Below are positions 6,001 to 9,000 of a stretch of 64,000 bases of DNA, in pieces. Origin of the DNA: Escherichia coli (GTDB lineage Bacteria > Pseudomonadota > Gammaproteobacteria > Enterobacterales > Enterobacteriaceae); NCBI RefSeq assembly GCF_044324875.1, contig NZ_CP172185.1. One strand, 5' to 3'. The position numbers were made by a program. Positions within the stretch are counted from its first letter, which is position 1, and every line of letters starts with the position of its first letter.

Positions 6001-9000
6001 GCTGCAACATTGATGGAGAGCGGGAACAGCGCACGGCCTGACATATACATCTCTTCACCAGGCAGTGCGCCTTTATTGTTGATGGTGCCGAGAGTGTTAG
6101 TCAGTTTTACGCCAAAGCCGAGTGATTTTTCTTTTGCCAGTGCCATCAGACGTTCCAGCATTTCCAGTGCTTGCGTCAGCTTGAGGTCGTGATCAAATGA
6201 CTCTTCTTTTAAGCCTATGTAACCGAAACCGCAGACATTGAGGATCTCACGAACACGCGCGTACCCCAGTAAGGTCGGGTTGAGTTTCACAAAGGTATTG
6301 AGCCCTTTTTCTTCCAGCATGTAGCGGCAAATGGCTTCGATTTCATGCGGAGGACAGCCGTGCATCGTGGAGAGGGTAACGCCTTGTACCATGCTGGTGG
6401 GGATGCGTGCCGGTAAGGCCTGCAAGCATTCGCGTTTTTCCTGTAAGCCGTGGCGGGCTAAAAATGCGTCATCCTGGAGTAGTTTATTAAGCGTATCGCG
6501 GTACTGTGCGAATTTCGGATGGTCAGACGCGTCCATCATATTATCGATGAACTGCTGCATGGGCGGCTGTTTAATCCCTTCAAGGTTATAACCGACGCTC
6601 ATATTAAAGATAAATGACTTACCGGATCCTGATGGCTGGAACATCGCTTCCAACAGATGCAGGGCAAACCAGGCTTTGAGGTATTCATCCCAGGCTTTAA
6701 GCAGGGTAAATTCGGTGGACCATTCGGTGTTAAAGCACTCGTCTTCGGCATCAATACAGGGCTTTTCCAGCTCCAGGCGGTCAAGAATTTGGACGGTTTT
6801 TAGTTCGATGAAGCGTCCGCCAGTTAGCCAGGAAGTGACAATATTTTGCGCGAGCTGCGTGTGCGGGCCAGCGGCAGGGCCGACGGGAGTGGCACAGGTT
6901 TCACCGAAGACACTAACAGTTTTACCTTTTACGGGTGAGTAAAACTGTTGCTCGGGAATACCAAAGATTGAGCGTTGTTGTTGGTATTCATCAAATATGC
7001 GCGTCAAAAGTTCCTCAAACGGAATGGGACGCATAATATCCCCCATAACCCTCTCCTTAGCTTATACAGATATCATTGAGTGACCGGTGTTGAGAAATCC
7101 GGTGGTTTAGGGGTATAGAGCAACAATCGCACCACTCTTGCCAGGTTTGGCGGGAAATATAAAAAAATGTGAGGCGGCTCGAAACTTAGGAGCTTTTTGT
7201 GAATGAACTCACAGGTGCCAAATGAGAATTAAAATCACTCCTGAAAATTATTATTGCCAGCCCATTTATCACTTTTTCTCTTTTCTCAAAATCAGTGATT
7301 CCTTATCATTATGATAAAGAGTGCTGGAGGGATTAAATATTTGAACGCAATCGTTTAACTACATTTTCTAAATTTTAGTATACCTTTTTTGCGCTGTAAT
7401 AAAGTCGTCCGGAGTATCAATATCTAAAATTATTTCTGCATTTTCTATTTCGACGGAATAATGATCTCCCATAAGGAGTGCCTGACGCATATTGGTGATA
7501 TTGGGACGCTGGATTGCCTGCATCAGGCATGGCTTTGACACTAAAATCGGATGGCCGGGAATGCCATTATGGAGTGGCAGTATTGCGCCATCATTTCGTA
7601 ACGACCAGATTTTTCTAAAAATATCGATGGTGAGGGTAGGCATGTCACCGTGGGTGAGAAAACAATATTCTGTTTTTACCGCGGGTACTGCGGCCTTTAC
7701 TGATGTGAGTAAACCCTGCGCATAATCTGGGTTGTGAATAATAGTGATATTGCTCTGGTTCGCATAACGTTCGTGCAGTTCATTACCACGATAGCCGGTG
7801 ACTAAAATAATTCGGCTACAAAACTGCAACGCATTTTTGATACTTGTATCAAGAATTGTTCCCTGTTGCCAGGGTAACATCATTTTCCATTGCCCCATTC
7901 TTGATGATAATCCGGCAGCGGTAATTATACAGTCGATGGCTGACATAGTGGTTCCATTATTTATAGGGGCTAATAACGCCTGATAATTGCGTTACTTCCT
8001 GATGGATTAAGTTGGGGATAATTTATCCCAGAGAGGTCATAAAGACTCGTGAAAAGTATAGTTGACCCATCGGCATTATTCATTGATTTAGGCGCGCAGA
8101 AACGTCCCACTGTGATTTCTGTTGTTGGGGCTGGGGGGAAAACCAGCTTGCTTTTTTGGCTGGCAGAACTGCTCCAGGCTAGCGGCAGGCGTGTGTTAAT
8201 CACTACGACGACACATATGTTTATGCCAACGTCTCACTGGCCCGTGGTTTTCTGTCGTGATCCCGCCATGCTTCCTCATGCGTCTCTTACATCCCCCATT
8301 TCATTTTGTTTTCACAGCTGGAAAGCGAACCAGGGAAAGGTGCAGGGATTTACGCCAGAAGCGATTGATGCACTGGTGCAACGACCAGAGTGTGACGTAA
8401 TTCTCATTGAGGCAGATGGCTCGCGTGGAATGCCGTTAAAAGCGCCTGATGAGCACGAACCTTGCATACCTAAAAGCAGTTGCTGCGTGATTGCTGTGAT
8501 GGGAGGACATATTTTGGGTGCAAAAGTGAGCACAGAAAATGTCCATCGCTGGTCGCAGTTTGCTGATATTACTGGGTTAACACCTGATGCACCCTTGCAA
8601 CTGAGCGATCTCGTTGCGCTGGTTCGCCACCCTCAGGGCGCGTTTAAAAACGTACCGCAAGGTTGTCGGCGAGTCTGGTTCATTAACCGTTTTTCTCAAT
8701 GTGAGAATGCGATTGCGCAAAGCGAGCTCCTTCAACCGCTGCAACAACACAACGTAGAGGCAATCTGGCTGGGCGATATACAAGAACATCCTGCAATCGC
8801 GCGCAGATTTGTGAATTAGCGGCCCGGGTATTCCGGGTTACTGAAAGGATATCCATTGAGGTTGGTATGAATATTTTCACAGAGGCTGCAAAACTCGAAG
8901 AGCAAAATTGTCCGTTTGCGATGGCGCAAATTGTAGATAGCCGAGGCTCTACTCCCCGCCATTCTGCACAAATGTTAGTGCGCGCCGATGGTTCTATCGT

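What the first reader, a model, noticed from the sequence alone, without database searches (positions are those of the whole stretch)
7303..7317. 15-bp perfect palindrome in the mocA-ygfK intergenic region
TTATCATTATGATAA is a perfect palindrome about 170 bp upstream of the candidate sigma-54 promoter, a position typical for a bEBP upstream activator site or a repressor operator. It only loosely resembles a Fur box.
Basis: seen in the sequence. Interest (0 to 1): 0.25.

Follow-up and report, generated by a model that had tools for sequence, protein, structure and literature searches.

The report
Enhancer site for the YgeV activator
The palindrome is most likely the docking site from which the sigma-54 activator YgeV switches on the E. 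coli ygfK operon for anaerobic uric-acid/purine breakdown; the same motif sits upstream of the cluster's other sigma-54 promoters that I examined and is conserved from Vibrio to Clostridia.

Summary
The sequence is real. TTATCATTATGATAA (7-1-7 dyad) lies at 7303-7317, between mocA and ygfK, with its centre 175 bp upstream of the ChIP-seq-supported sigma-54 promoter of ygfK.

A palindrome of this size is not rare: the window holds 13, against about 5 expected. Its significance comes from conservation and context.
- About 50 orthologous ygfK promoters, from Enterobacterales to Aeromonas and Vibrio, keep a T[A/C]TCA-N3-TGA[T/G]A core.
- Its distance from the sigma-54 promoter varies in roughly whole helical turns (about 175, 165, 155, 146, 133, 103 bp).
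- A matrix trained only on non-Escherichia ygfK sites ranks this palindrome first in the 64-kb window.
- It ranks a ygeW-ygeV intergenic site second, a site inside yqeC (upstream of yqeB) third, and an xdhA-upstream site fifth.
- It gives the only strong hit in 18 kb of K-12, in the ygfT-uacT intergenic region.
- The E. coli site matches 18 of 19 bases of a site predicted in 2019 for the Clostridial activator DioR upstream of ygeW-ygfK-ssnA-ygeY.
- The YgeV recognition-helix segment LGIG(I/V)ATLYRKI is near-invariant across about 65 of these loci (Ile or Val at one position, two other single substitutions) and in a Firmicutes homologue.

The Fur-box, terminator and chance readings fail. Binding by YgeV is inferred, not shown.

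Verdict: a genuine upstream activator site that no searchable paper describes in E. coli, and a new member of a known kind.

The parts
7303..7317 (.). The palindrome TTATCATTATGATAA (conserved core TATCA-N3-TGATA at 7304-7316). Proposed primary YgeV upstream activator site of the ygfK sigma-54 promoter, centred about -202 from the inferred start site.
   Evidence: Sequence. Top PWM hit in the window at 21.7 bits, with a matrix trained on non-Escherichia sites only. Conserved in about 50 orthologous promoters. Dinucleotide-shuffle P < 3e-4. 18 of 19 bases identical to a predicted DioR site in C. botulinum.
7279..7299 (-). ATCACTGATTTTGAGAAAAGA: a conserved TTTTGAGAAA half-site block centred 20 bp promoter-proximal to the palindrome. 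Proposed weak second YgeV site on the same helical face.
   Evidence: Conserved block seen. Offset +20 has the highest mean PWM score after the primary site across 50 orthologues. The E. coli copy scores only 1.1 bits as a full site.
7220..7238 (-). GTGATTTTAATTCTCATTT: a strongly conserved block that contains a TTCTCA half-site. Its role is unknown; it could be an auxiliary YgeV contact or a site for another protein.
   Evidence: Conserved in most Enterobacterales orthologues. It does not score as a full palindrome.
7198..7213 (.). TGTGAGTTCATTCACA (- strand): a perfect CRP consensus, centred about -97.5, roughly midway between the palindrome and the promoter. Proposed to provide cAMP-CRP control and DNA bending.
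   Evidence: The only zero-mismatch match to TGTGA-N6-TCACA in the window. Conserved in orthologues. A CRP site in the sister ygeV-ygeW region is mentioned in a 2025 bioRxiv preprint.
7119..7135 (-). The sigma-54 (-24/-12) promoter of ygfK, GTGGTGCGATTGTTGCT. The inferred start site is near 7108, giving a 5' UTR of about 62 nt.
   Evidence: Sigma-54 ChIP-seq site upstream of ygfK in Bonocora et al. 2015 (PMC4591121). Conserved as [CG]TGG[TC]G[CT]GAWTGTTGCT in orthologues.
3948..7046 (-). ygfK, the first gene of the ygfK-ssnA-ygfM-xdhD operon that this promoter drives.
   Evidence: ORF list and RefSeq annotation. These genes belong to the YgeV iModulon.
17141..18919 (+). ygeV: a 592-aa sigma-54 enhancer-binding protein with PAS, AAA+ Sigma54_activat and Fis-type HTH_8 domains. 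The proposed binder of the motif.
   Evidence: Pfam scan. The HTH segment LGIG(I/V)ATLYRKI is near-invariant across about 65 loci, and ELGIGIATLYRKI is identical in a Firmicutes homologue.
16970..16988 (-). CTATATCAATATGAGAATT: the same motif, centred 207 bp upstream of the ygeW sigma-54 promoter (16772-16756, CTGGCATAGTTATTGTT).
   Evidence: PWM rank 2 in the window at 19.1 bits. Shuffle P = 3e-4. Conserved in about 40 of the 47 ygeW promoters that could be anchored on a sigma-54 match. 75 hits of at least 12 bits lie upstream of ygeW across the 80 loci.
17068..17086 (-). ACAGATCATGATGATATTA: a weaker second motif copy in the ygeW-ygeV intergenic region.
   Evidence: One mismatch to the core. 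8.4 bits, rank 14.
22788..22827 (-). Two motif copies 21 bp apart (ATTTATCACATTGATTTTA and GCCACTCATATTGATACGT), centred 125 and 104 bp upstream of the xdhA sigma-54 promoter (22693-22677, CTGGCGTAAATCTTGCC).
   Evidence: 12.6 and 9.4 bits, ranks 5 and 11. Shuffle P = 6e-3. xdhA sigma-54 ChIP site. Orthologous xdhA-upstream hits.
8691..8709 (+). TTTTCTCAATGTGAGAATG: a motif copy inside the 3' end of yqeC. It lies 167 bp upstream of the yqeB ATG and about 235 bp downstream of the validated intragenic sigma-54 promoter PyqeC (8450-8466).
   Evidence: PWM rank 3 at 17.1 bits. Conserved as a DNA motif in 25 loci although the encoded amino acids differ. PyqeC is located and was validated in Bonocora 2015.

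Best explanation
The palindrome is the main upstream activator sequence (enhancer) of the sigma-54 promoter of ygfK-ssnA-ygfM-xdhD. It is most likely bound by a dimer of YgeV, the enhancer-binding protein encoded 10 kb away in the same cluster, through its C-terminal Fis-type helix-turn-helix.

Proposed mechanism (inferred by analogy with characterised bEBPs):
1. YgeV sits on TATCA-N3-TGATA, and on a weaker half-site 20 bp closer to the promoter.
2. When its N-terminal sensor domain is activated, presumably by urate or a pathway intermediate under anaerobiosis, YgeV assembles into an AAA+ ring.
3. The intervening DNA loops, probably helped by cAMP-CRP bound at the perfect CRP site midway.
4. 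ATP hydrolysis remodels the closed sigma-54 holoenzyme complex at GTGGTGCGATTGTTGCT into an open complex.

The same motif serves the other sigma-54 promoters of the cluster that I examined (xdhA, ygeW, yqeB, ygfT/uacT), so one regulator would co-ordinate the whole anaerobic uric-acid/purine degradation regulon.

Shown here: the site, its conservation, its phasing, its presence at these promoters, and its identity with the DioR motif. Inferred: that YgeV is the binder, what the signal is, and the bending role of CRP.
For: (1) Position. The palindrome centre is 175 bp upstream of the ygfK sigma-54 promoter, which is supported by ChIP-seq and conserved in orthologues.

(2) Phylogenetic footprint. 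About 50 orthologous ygfK promoters, from Enterobacterales to Aeromonas and Vibrio, keep T[A/C]TCA-N3-TGA[T/G]A. The spacer and flanks vary: information content is 1.8-1.9 bits in the arms and 0.1-0.9 elsewhere. The site persists where mocA is absent (with 22), so it belongs to ygfK and not to the 3' end of mocA.

(3) Helical phasing. The site-to-promoter distances fall into classes of 187, 176, 167, 165, 155, 146, 133 and 103 bp, which keep helical phase (R = 0.86 at 10.5 bp per turn, simulated p about 1e-3).

(4) Regulon test with a matrix trained only on non-Escherichia ygfK sites.
- Window ranks 1, 2, 3 and 5 fall at ygfK, ygeW-ygeV, yqeC/yqeB and xdhA.
- The single strong hit in 18 kb of K-12 is in the ygfT-uacT intergenic region (18.8 bits; the next best is 6.4).
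- Shuffle P values are <3e-4, 3e-4, 6e-3 and 3e-4.
- A 20-kb control region reaches at most 5.6 bits.
- Of 217 hits of at least 12 bits in 1.56 Mb, 170 lie upstream of ygfK, ygeW, xdhA or ygeV, or in the yqeC 3' end.

(5) These target genes are the YgeV iModulon, and ygfT expression is reported to fall in a ygeV mutant.

(6) YgeV is the only DNA-binding protein I recognised among the genes shared across these clusters. It carries Sigma54_activat and HTH_8 domains. Its HTH segment LGIG(I/V)ATLYRKI is near-invariant across about 65 loci.

(7) Nie et al. 2019 predicted ATTTATCATAATGATAAGG and related sequences as UAS sites of the Clostridial bEBP DioR, which controls ygeW-ygfK-ssnA-ygeY, dpaL, yqeB and xdhABC. 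That site matches the E. coli site at 18 of 19 bases, and 8 of the 10 DioR sites scored reach 13.6-21.8 bits with my matrix.

(8) In a 62%-GC Firmicutes MAG, the only three hits of at least 10 bits in 21 kb all lie between a YgeV-like bEBP gene and a sigma-54 promoter upstream of ygeY/ygeX-like genes. Its HTH segment ELGIGIATLYRKI is identical to that of YgeV.
Against: - There are no direct binding or mutational data for YgeV at any site. None was found in the searchable literature.
- Only one full palindrome is present at ygfK. bEBPs usually use two or more sites, and the second element is only a half-site (1.1 bits in E. coli).
- About -202 is at the far end of the usual UAS range.
- Four Aeromonas loci have the motif but no bEBP gene within the 10 kb held.
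- The xdhA sites are weak (12.6 and 9.4 bits).
- The yqeC-internal copy lies downstream of its nearest sigma-54 promoter, which is atypical.
- The matrix is AT-rich, so weak hits are not informative.
- The phasing statistic treats the distance classes as independent, which they are not fully.
Confidence: 0.8

Rival explanations
1. The motif is a real regulon-wide operator, but it is bound by a transcription factor other than YgeV. An example would be an unidentified anaerobic or purine-responsive regulator encoded elsewhere that co-regulates all the cluster promoters.
For: No binding data tie YgeV to the site. Four Aeromonas loci carry the motif without a bEBP gene in the 21 kb held. The promoters also carry other conserved blocks of unknown function and CRP- and PurR-like boxes, so several factors clearly act here.
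Against: The motif travels with a YgeV-family bEBP gene and sigma-54 promoters across phyla, including a high-GC Firmicutes MAG where it is very unlikely by chance. The YgeV HTH is near-invariant, in parallel with the conserved motif. I recognised no other DNA-binding protein among the genes shared across the clusters. The site's distance and helical phasing relative to -24/-12 promoters are those of an enhancer.
Confidence: 0.12
2. The palindrome is a Fur box, giving iron-dependent repression of ygfK, whose product is an Fe-S flavoprotein.
For: It shares ATCATTAT / GATAA-type AT-rich hexamers with the Fur consensus, and the best register matches 13 of 19. The operon encodes Fe-S and molybdenum enzymes.
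Against: A 13 of 19 match occurs at 44 positions in the window, so it is at chance level. The orthologue conservation pattern is TATCA/TGATA arms with a free 3-bp spacer, including TTCTCA...TGAGAA variants, which is not the Fur pattern. The site is about 200 bp upstream of the start, not over a promoter.
Confidence: 0.02
3. The palindrome forms an RNA hairpin at the 3' end of the mocA transcript, acting as a terminator or stabiliser.
For: It lies 51-65 nt after the mocA stop codon. It can form an AU-rich stem of about 9 bp with a 3-nt loop in the minimum-free-energy fold.
Against: The terminator scan does not call it. There is no GC-rich stem and no adjacent U-tract. The fold z-score is only -1.77, and there is no Rfam match. 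The palindrome is retained upstream of ygfK in genera that lack mocA at this position. The same motif occurs upstream of unrelated promoters.
Confidence: 0.03
4. It is a chance AT-rich palindrome with no function.
For: Perfect 7-1-7 palindromes are common: 13 in the window against about 5 expected. At least one other, at 8015, is not conserved.
Against: Conservation over large phylogenetic distances, with variable flanks. Recurrence at the other sigma-54 promoters examined in the cluster, with shuffle P of 6e-3 or lower.
Confidence: 0.02

Closest known systems
Predicted UAS motif of the Clostridial sigma-54 activator DioR (Nie, Dong & Yang 2019, BMC Genomics, PMC6615313, Table S3)
   Same: Same dyad, TTATCA-N3-TGATAA. 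The C. botulinum CBO2885 site ATTTATCATAATGATAAGG is identical at 18 of 19 positions. The target genes are the same (ygeW-ygfK-ssnA-ygeY, dpaL, yqeB, yqeC-ygfJ, xdhABC). Sites lie at the same sort of distance upstream of -24/-12 promoters, and often more than one per promoter.
   Different: That work covered Clostridiales only and was purely computational for this group, with the regulon's function listed as 'Unknown'. The E. coli/proteobacterial sites, their helical phasing, and the CRP and PurR-like boxes around them are not part of it. I did not retrieve DioR protein sequences, so orthology with YgeV rests on a different Firmicutes homologue.
Classical bEBP enhancers of E. coli sigma-54 promoters (for example NtrC sites at glnAp2, with IHF- or CRP-assisted looping). 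This comparison rests on established knowledge, not on a test here.
   Same: A dyad-symmetric site for a Fis-type HTH dimer, 100-200 bp upstream of a -24/-12 promoter. Face-of-helix dependence. A bend-inducing protein site lies between the enhancer and the promoter.
   Different: The half-site sequence differs: TATCA rather than the TGCACC of NtrC or the TGT-N10-12-ACA of NifA/FhlA-like sites. There is a single strong dyad plus a half-site rather than two strong dyads. A consensus CRP site, not an IHF site, occupies the midpoint.
Fur box (GATAATGATAATCATTATC)
   Same: AT-rich and contains GATAA/TTATC-type hexamers. 13 of 19 in the best register.
   Different: The match is at chance level. The conservation pattern and the regulon context do not fit. 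The position is far upstream of the promoter.

Membership tests
Upstream activator sequence (enhancer) of a sigma-54 bEBP | Lies roughly 80-250 bp upstream of a -24/-12 sigma-54 promoter | tested here: met
   The centre is 175 bp upstream of GTGGTGCGATTGTTGCT (7135-7119). That promoter has sigma-54 ChIP-seq support and is conserved in orthologues.
Upstream activator sequence (enhancer) of a sigma-54 bEBP | Dyad symmetry suited to a dimeric Fis-type HTH, with the information concentrated in the two arms | tested here: met
   7-1-7 dyad. In 46 orthologous sites the information content is 1.8-1.9 bits at T.TCA / TGA.A and 0.9 bits or less in the spacer and flanks.
Upstream activator sequence (enhancer) of a sigma-54 bEBP | A cognate bEBP with AAA+ sigma-54 interaction domain and a DNA-binding domain is encoded in the same locus | tested here: met
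   ygeV at 17141-18919 has PAS, Sigma54_activat, AAA_lid_14 and HTH_8 domains. It is adjacent to ygeW in most of the 80 loci.
Upstream activator sequence (enhancer) of a sigma-54 bEBP | The same motif recurs at the other sigma-54 promoters of the regulon, and rarely elsewhere | tested here: met
   Window ranks 1, 2, 3 and 5. K-12 ygfT-uacT site at 18.8 bits against a next best of 6.4. Shuffle P of 6e-3 or lower. Control region maximum 5.6 bits. Distribution of 217 hits across 1.56 Mb.
Upstream activator sequence (enhancer) of a sigma-54 bEBP | Two or more adjacent sites that nucleate the oligomer | tested here: inconclusive
   ygfK has one full dyad plus a conserved half-site at +20 bp. Tandem sites 19-21 bp apart occur at xdhA and in other loci.
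Upstream activator sequence (enhancer) of a sigma-54 bEBP | Direct binding by the bEBP, and a requirement for the site in activation | not testable with these tools
   This needs EMSA, footprinting, ChIP and reporter mutagenesis. No such data were found in the library.
DioR-type UAS motif (Nie et al. 2019) | Sequence matches the published DioR site set | tested here: met
   18 of 19 bases identical to the CBO2885 site. Eight of the 10 DioR sites scored reach 13.6-21.8 bits with the proteobacterial matrix; the other two score 6.0 and 7.7.
DioR-type UAS motif (Nie et al. 2019) | The regulator is an orthologue of DioR | tested here: inconclusive
   DioR sequences were not retrieved. A Firmicutes bEBP that is 31% identical to the YgeV N-terminal domain has the identical HTH segment ELGIGIATLYRKI, with motif copies plus a sigma-54 promoter next to it.
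Fur box | A match to the 19-bp consensus well above background | tested here: not met
   Best match 13 of 19, with 44 equally good positions in the window.
Intrinsic (Rho-independent) terminator | GC-rich stem-loop followed by a U-tract | tested here: not met
   Not called by the scan. AU-rich stem, no U-tract, z-score -1.77.

The most novel reading that the evidence does not exclude
The palindrome may be one input of a compact multi-signal enhancer that was transferred horizontally as a unit, regulator plus cis-sites, between Firmicutes and Proteobacteria.

In this reading, YgeV at the dyad supplies the pathway-specific signal, cAMP-CRP at a consensus site supplies the carbon signal and also replaces IHF as the looping architect, and PurR-like boxes supply purine-pool information. 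The PurR-like boxes lie 45 bp upstream of the dyad at ygfK and between the UAS and the promoter at ygeW.

A further copy of the YgeV motif inside the yqeC coding sequence may act on the validated intragenic sigma-54 promoter PyqeC from about 235 bp downstream. That would be a natural downstream, intragenic bEBP enhancer in E. coli.
Probability: 0.3. Interest if true: 0.6.

Novelty: new member of a known kind. Interest (0 to 1): 0.45.

Why it matters
The ygeV-xdh-yge-ygf cluster has recently been recognised as the anaerobic uric-acid / 2,8-dioxopurine degradation pathway of gut bacteria. It is relevant to urate disposal and gout, and to engineered probiotics. Those papers state that its regulation is poorly understood.

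YgeV is one of the last E. coli sigma-54 activators for which I found no described DNA site. A defined 13-bp motif, present at the sigma-54 promoters examined here, turns 'the YgeV iModulon' into a directly testable regulon. It gives precise targets for EMSA, ChIP and promoter engineering. It also explains why the cluster can be switched as a unit.

The near-identity of the motif and of the recognition helix between Clostridia and Enterobacteria shows that regulator and operators have been retained, and probably moved, together.

Tried and rejected
- **Fur box.** Scored against the 19-bp consensus; the match is at chance level.
- **mocA terminator or structured RNA.** The terminator scan, the RNA fold and an Rfam search were all negative.
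- **Chance palindrome.** Palindromes of this size are indeed common, but conservation and regulon recurrence rule chance out.
- **Alternative sigma-54 match.** CTGGCAAGAGTGGTGCG (7144-7128), which I first picked by eye, is Escherichia-specific. The conserved, ChIP-supported promoter is the overlapping GTGGTGCGATTGTTGCT.
- **A sigma-54 promoter between the yqeC-internal site and yqeB.** None was found by eye. The known PyqeC lies upstream of the site.
- **ybiYW.** These genes are listed in the YgeV iModulon, but there is no motif upstream (maximum 5.6 bits in 20 kb), so any link is probably indirect.
- **The 7-1-7 palindrome at 8015 in the mocA-yqeC region.** Not conserved.
- **IHF consensus between the UAS and the promoter.** No convincing match by eye.
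- **YgeV homologue search.** The search for homologous proteins with the YgeV N-terminal domain returned mostly fragments; only one Firmicutes homologue was usable.
- **Iwadate & Kato 2019 (J Bacteriol).** Could not be read. Its results are cited only as reported by other papers.
- **Covariation between HTH residues and the A/C variant of the half-site.** Not pursued, because both variants occur within E. coli itself.
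Full report
**Observation.** The window is an E. coli chromosome segment (not K-12; the 421-bp region around the site is 96.9% identical to W3110) that carries the xdh-yge-yqe-ygf purine-catabolism cluster in reverse orientation.
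- TTATCATTATGATAA is at 7303-7317 exactly as reported. It has 7-bp arms around one central base.
- It lies in the 321-bp spacer between the mocA stop (7368) and the ygfK start (7046), both on the - strand.
- The 15-mer is unique in the window.
- Palindromes of this size are not rare: there are 13 perfect 7-1-7 palindromes against 4.7 +/- 2.1 expected. The bare observation is therefore not beyond chance.
- The palindrome was intact in all eight E. coli genomes I aligned, and the surrounding 60 bp is present in 5157 of 5426 complete genomes. E. coli genomes are too similar to one another for this to be informative.

**The promoter it belongs to.** Bonocora et al. 2015 mapped a sigma-54 ChIP-seq site, GTGGTGCGATTGTTGCT, 62 bp upstream of ygfK (PMC4591121).
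- This is window 7135-7119 on the - strand.
- I fetched 80 loci around ygeY orthologues from one genome per species and mapped the cluster genes in each.
- The promoter is conserved as [CG]TGG[TC]G[CT]GAWTGTTGCT upstream of ygfK in most Enterobacterales and beyond.
- An overlapping match, CTGGCAAGAGTGGTGCG, is specific to Escherichia and is probably not the promoter.

**Conservation of the palindrome.** When the sequences are anchored on the sigma-54 promoter, about 50 orthologous regions show the palindrome.

| Genus | Site |
|---|---|
| Citrobacter | TTATCATAATGATAA |
| Raoultella, Klebsiella | TTATCATTGTGATAG |
| Edwardsiella, Serratia, Aeromonas, Vibrio | TATCAAAGTGATA |
| Kluyvera | TTCTCATATTGATAG |
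| Erwinia | TTCTCATAATGAGAG |

- The information lies in the arms, T[A/C]TCA and TGA[T/G]A (1.8-1.9 bits per position, 1.1 at the A/C position). The 3-bp spacer and the flanks vary.
- The site persists in genera where mocA and yqeC are not upstream of ygfK. It therefore belongs to the ygfK promoter and not to the mocA 3' end.
- The distance from the dyad centre to the promoter takes discrete values: 187, 176/175, 167, 165, 155/154, 146, 133 and 103. These keep helical phase (R = 0.86 at 10.5 bp per turn, simulated p about 1e-3). The caveat is that the classes are not fully independent.

**Regulon test.** I built a symmetrised 19-bp matrix from 46 unique non-Escherichia ygfK sites and scanned material that was not used for training.

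| Window rank | Location | Score (bits) |
|---|---|---|
| 1 | the palindrome | 21.7 |
| 2 | 16970-16988, ygeW-ygeV intergenic region | 19.1 |
| 3 | 8691-8709, inside the yqeC 3' end, upstream of yqeB | 17.1 |
| 5 and 11 | two sites 21 bp apart upstream of xdhA | 12.6 and 9.4 |
| 14 | a second ygeW-ygeV site | 8.4 |

Further results:
- In 18 kb of K-12 downstream of ygfK, which lies outside the window, the only strong hit (18.8 bits; next best 6.4) is in the divergent ygfT-uacT intergenic region. It sits between the ygfT sigma-54 ChIP site and a candidate uacT promoter, CTGGCACTCCACGAGCA.
- Dinucleotide shuffles of each intergenic region give P(max >= observed) of <3e-4 for ygfK, 3e-4 for ygeW-ygeV, 6e-3 for xdhA and 3e-4 for ygfT-uacT.
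- An unrelated 20-kb K-12 region reaches at most 5.6 bits.
- Across the 80 loci (1.56 Mb) there are 217 hits of at least 12 bits: 75 upstream of ygeW, 59 upstream of ygfK, 25 in the yqeC 3' end, 9 upstream of xdhA and 4 upstream of ygeV.
- The ygeW site (tATCACAttttcaTATCAATATGAGAat) recurs in about 40 of the 47 ygeW promoters that could be anchored on a sigma-54 match, at a conserved position upstream of CTGGCACnnTTATTGTT (about 207 bp in E. coli).
- These operons are the published YgeV iModulon: xdhABC, ygeWXY, hyuA, ygfK, ssnA, ygfM, xdhD, ygfT and uacT.

**Who binds.**
- YgeV (17141-18919) is a PAS / AAA+ sigma-54-interaction / Fis-type HTH protein. It is the only DNA-binding protein I recognised among the genes shared across these clusters.
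- Its HTH segment LGIG(I/V)ATLYRKI is near-invariant across about 65 of the loci, from E. coli to Shewanella and beta-proteobacteria. It has Ile or Val at one position and two other single substitutions.
- Nie et al. [quoted passage not shown] They predicted that the activator DioR controls dpaL-pyrC-argE, yqeB, ygeW-ygfK-ssnA-ygeY, yqeC-ygfJ-yqeB-xdhC and xdhABC.
- Their UAS sites include ATTTATCATAATGATAAGG, ATTTATCAAAGTGATAAGT and TATTATCATTTTGATAATA (PMC6615313, Table S3).
- The first of these is identical to the E. coli site at 18 of 19 positions. Eight of the 10 DioR sites I scored reach 13.6-21.8 bits with my proteobacterial matrix; the other two score 6.0 and 7.7.
- As an independent check I examined a Firmicutes MAG with 62% GC. 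It encodes a bEBP that is 31% identical to the YgeV sensor domain.
- In that MAG, the only three hits of at least 10 bits in 21 kb lie in the 350-bp spacer between the bEBP gene and ygeY/ygeX-like genes. They sit just upstream of TGGCAAGGTAATTGCA.
- Its HTH segment ELGIGIATLYRKI is identical to that of YgeV.
- No paper in the searchable library reports a YgeV binding site in E. coli.

**Architecture and likely mechanism.** Taking the C of the -12 GC as -12, the start site is near 7108.
- The dyad centre is at about -202.
- A conserved TTTTGAGAAA half-site block is centred 20 bp closer to the promoter.
- A second conserved block, GTGATTTTAATTCTCATTT, contains a TTCTCA half-site.
- A perfect CRP consensus, TGTGAGTTCATTCACA, is centred at about -97.5. 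It is roughly midway between the dyad and the promoter, it is the only zero-mismatch CRP match in the window, and it is conserved in most genera.
- I infer that YgeV dimers on the dyad (plus the half-site) oligomerise on signal, that CRP bends the DNA and imposes catabolite control, and that the ATPase remodels the sigma-54 holoenzyme.
- The signal is not identified here. The Clostridial cluster is urate-inducible, and E. coli ygeV is reported to be needed for ygfT expression and urate consumption.

**Rivals.**
- Fur: 13 of 19 is at chance level (44 equal positions in the window), and the conservation pattern does not fit.
- Terminator or structured RNA: not called by the scan, an AU-rich stem without a U-tract, z-score -1.77, and no Rfam match.
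- Another, unidentified factor binding the same motif cannot be excluded without binding data. It is disfavoured because motif, bEBP gene and sigma-54 promoter travel together across phyla.

**Verdict.** This is a genuine enhancer that no searchable paper describes in E. coli, for an orphan sigma-54 activator that controls a medically topical pathway. The motif class was already predicted for the Clostridial counterpart, so I rate it a new member of a known kind and of moderate interest.

Noticed in passing
window 7198-7213 (and 16815-16830): A perfect CRP consensus, TGTGAGTTCATTCACA, lies midway between the palindrome and the ygfK sigma-54 promoter and is conserved across genera. A one-mismatch copy (TGTGATCAACCCCACA) sits in the ygeW promoter. 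CRP may replace IHF as the looping factor at these sigma-54 promoters.
   Followed up: partly
window 7340-7358 (- strand TTAAACGATTGCGTTCAAA) and 16863-16878 (- strand AGCCAAACGTTTTCGT): These are PurR-operator-like boxes. The ygeW copy is the only match with 3 or fewer mismatches to ACGCAAACGTTTGCGT in the 64 kb and is conserved in Citrobacter, Trabulsiella, Pluralibacter and Atlantibacter. The ygfK copy (12 of 16) lies 45 bp upstream of the palindrome and is conserved as CGATTGCGYTCA in Citrobacter, Edwardsiella, Buttiauxella and Serratia. They suggest purine-pool control of the catabolic cluster. I found no literature on this.
   Followed up: partly
window 8691-8709 (inside yqeC, 8049-8819 +): TTCTCAATGTGAGAA is a perfect dyad of the same motif within the coding sequence. 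It is conserved as DNA in 25 loci while the encoded residues differ (FSQCEN against FLKMRN). It lies about 235 bp downstream of the validated intragenic sigma-54 promoter PyqeC (8450-8466) and 167 bp upstream of yqeB. It may be a natural downstream or intragenic bEBP enhancer.
   Followed up: partly
L085 12814-12832 (K-12 W3110 ygfT-uacT intergenic region, outside the window): AAATATCAATATGAGAAAA is the single strong motif hit (18.8 bits). It lies between the weak ygfT sigma-54 ChIP site (TATGCCCGTTTATTGCA) and a candidate uacT sigma-54 promoter, CTGGCACTCCACGAGCA, that I did not see in the passages of the ChIP-seq study that I searched.
   Followed up: partly
window 15125-15143 (inside ygeX): A perfect core match, GATATCAAGATGATAT, lies about 285 bp into ygeX. 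Hits at the equivalent position occur in Citrobacter, Kosakonia, Edwardsiella and Serratia loci ('other' hits near 8890-9054). It could be a coding constraint or an internal site. dpaL/ygeX is a separate DioR target in Clostridia.
   Followed up: no
L089 (E. coli GN05505) aligned to window 7251-7370: In this strain, homology to the window breaks a few bases to the promoter-proximal side of the palindrome: the TTCC flank is retained and then unrelated sequence follows. This looks like an insertion or rearrangement that separates the UAS from the ygfK promoter.
   Followed up: no
window 7128-7144 (- strand CTGGCAAGAGTGGTGCG): This second GG-N10-GC sigma-54-like match overlaps the real promoter, offset by 9 bp. 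It is present only in Escherichia, so it is probably fortuitous.
   Followed up: yes
window 8015-8029 (mocA-yqeC divergent region): GGGATAATTTATCCC is another perfect 7-1-7 palindrome. It is already broken in the next Escherichia-like genome and absent elsewhere, so it is probably chance.
   Followed up: yes
L090 (K-12 ybiY-ybiW region): ybiYW is listed in the YgeV iModulon but has no motif upstream (maximum 5.6 bits in 20 kb). Its co-expression is probably indirect.
   Followed up: yes
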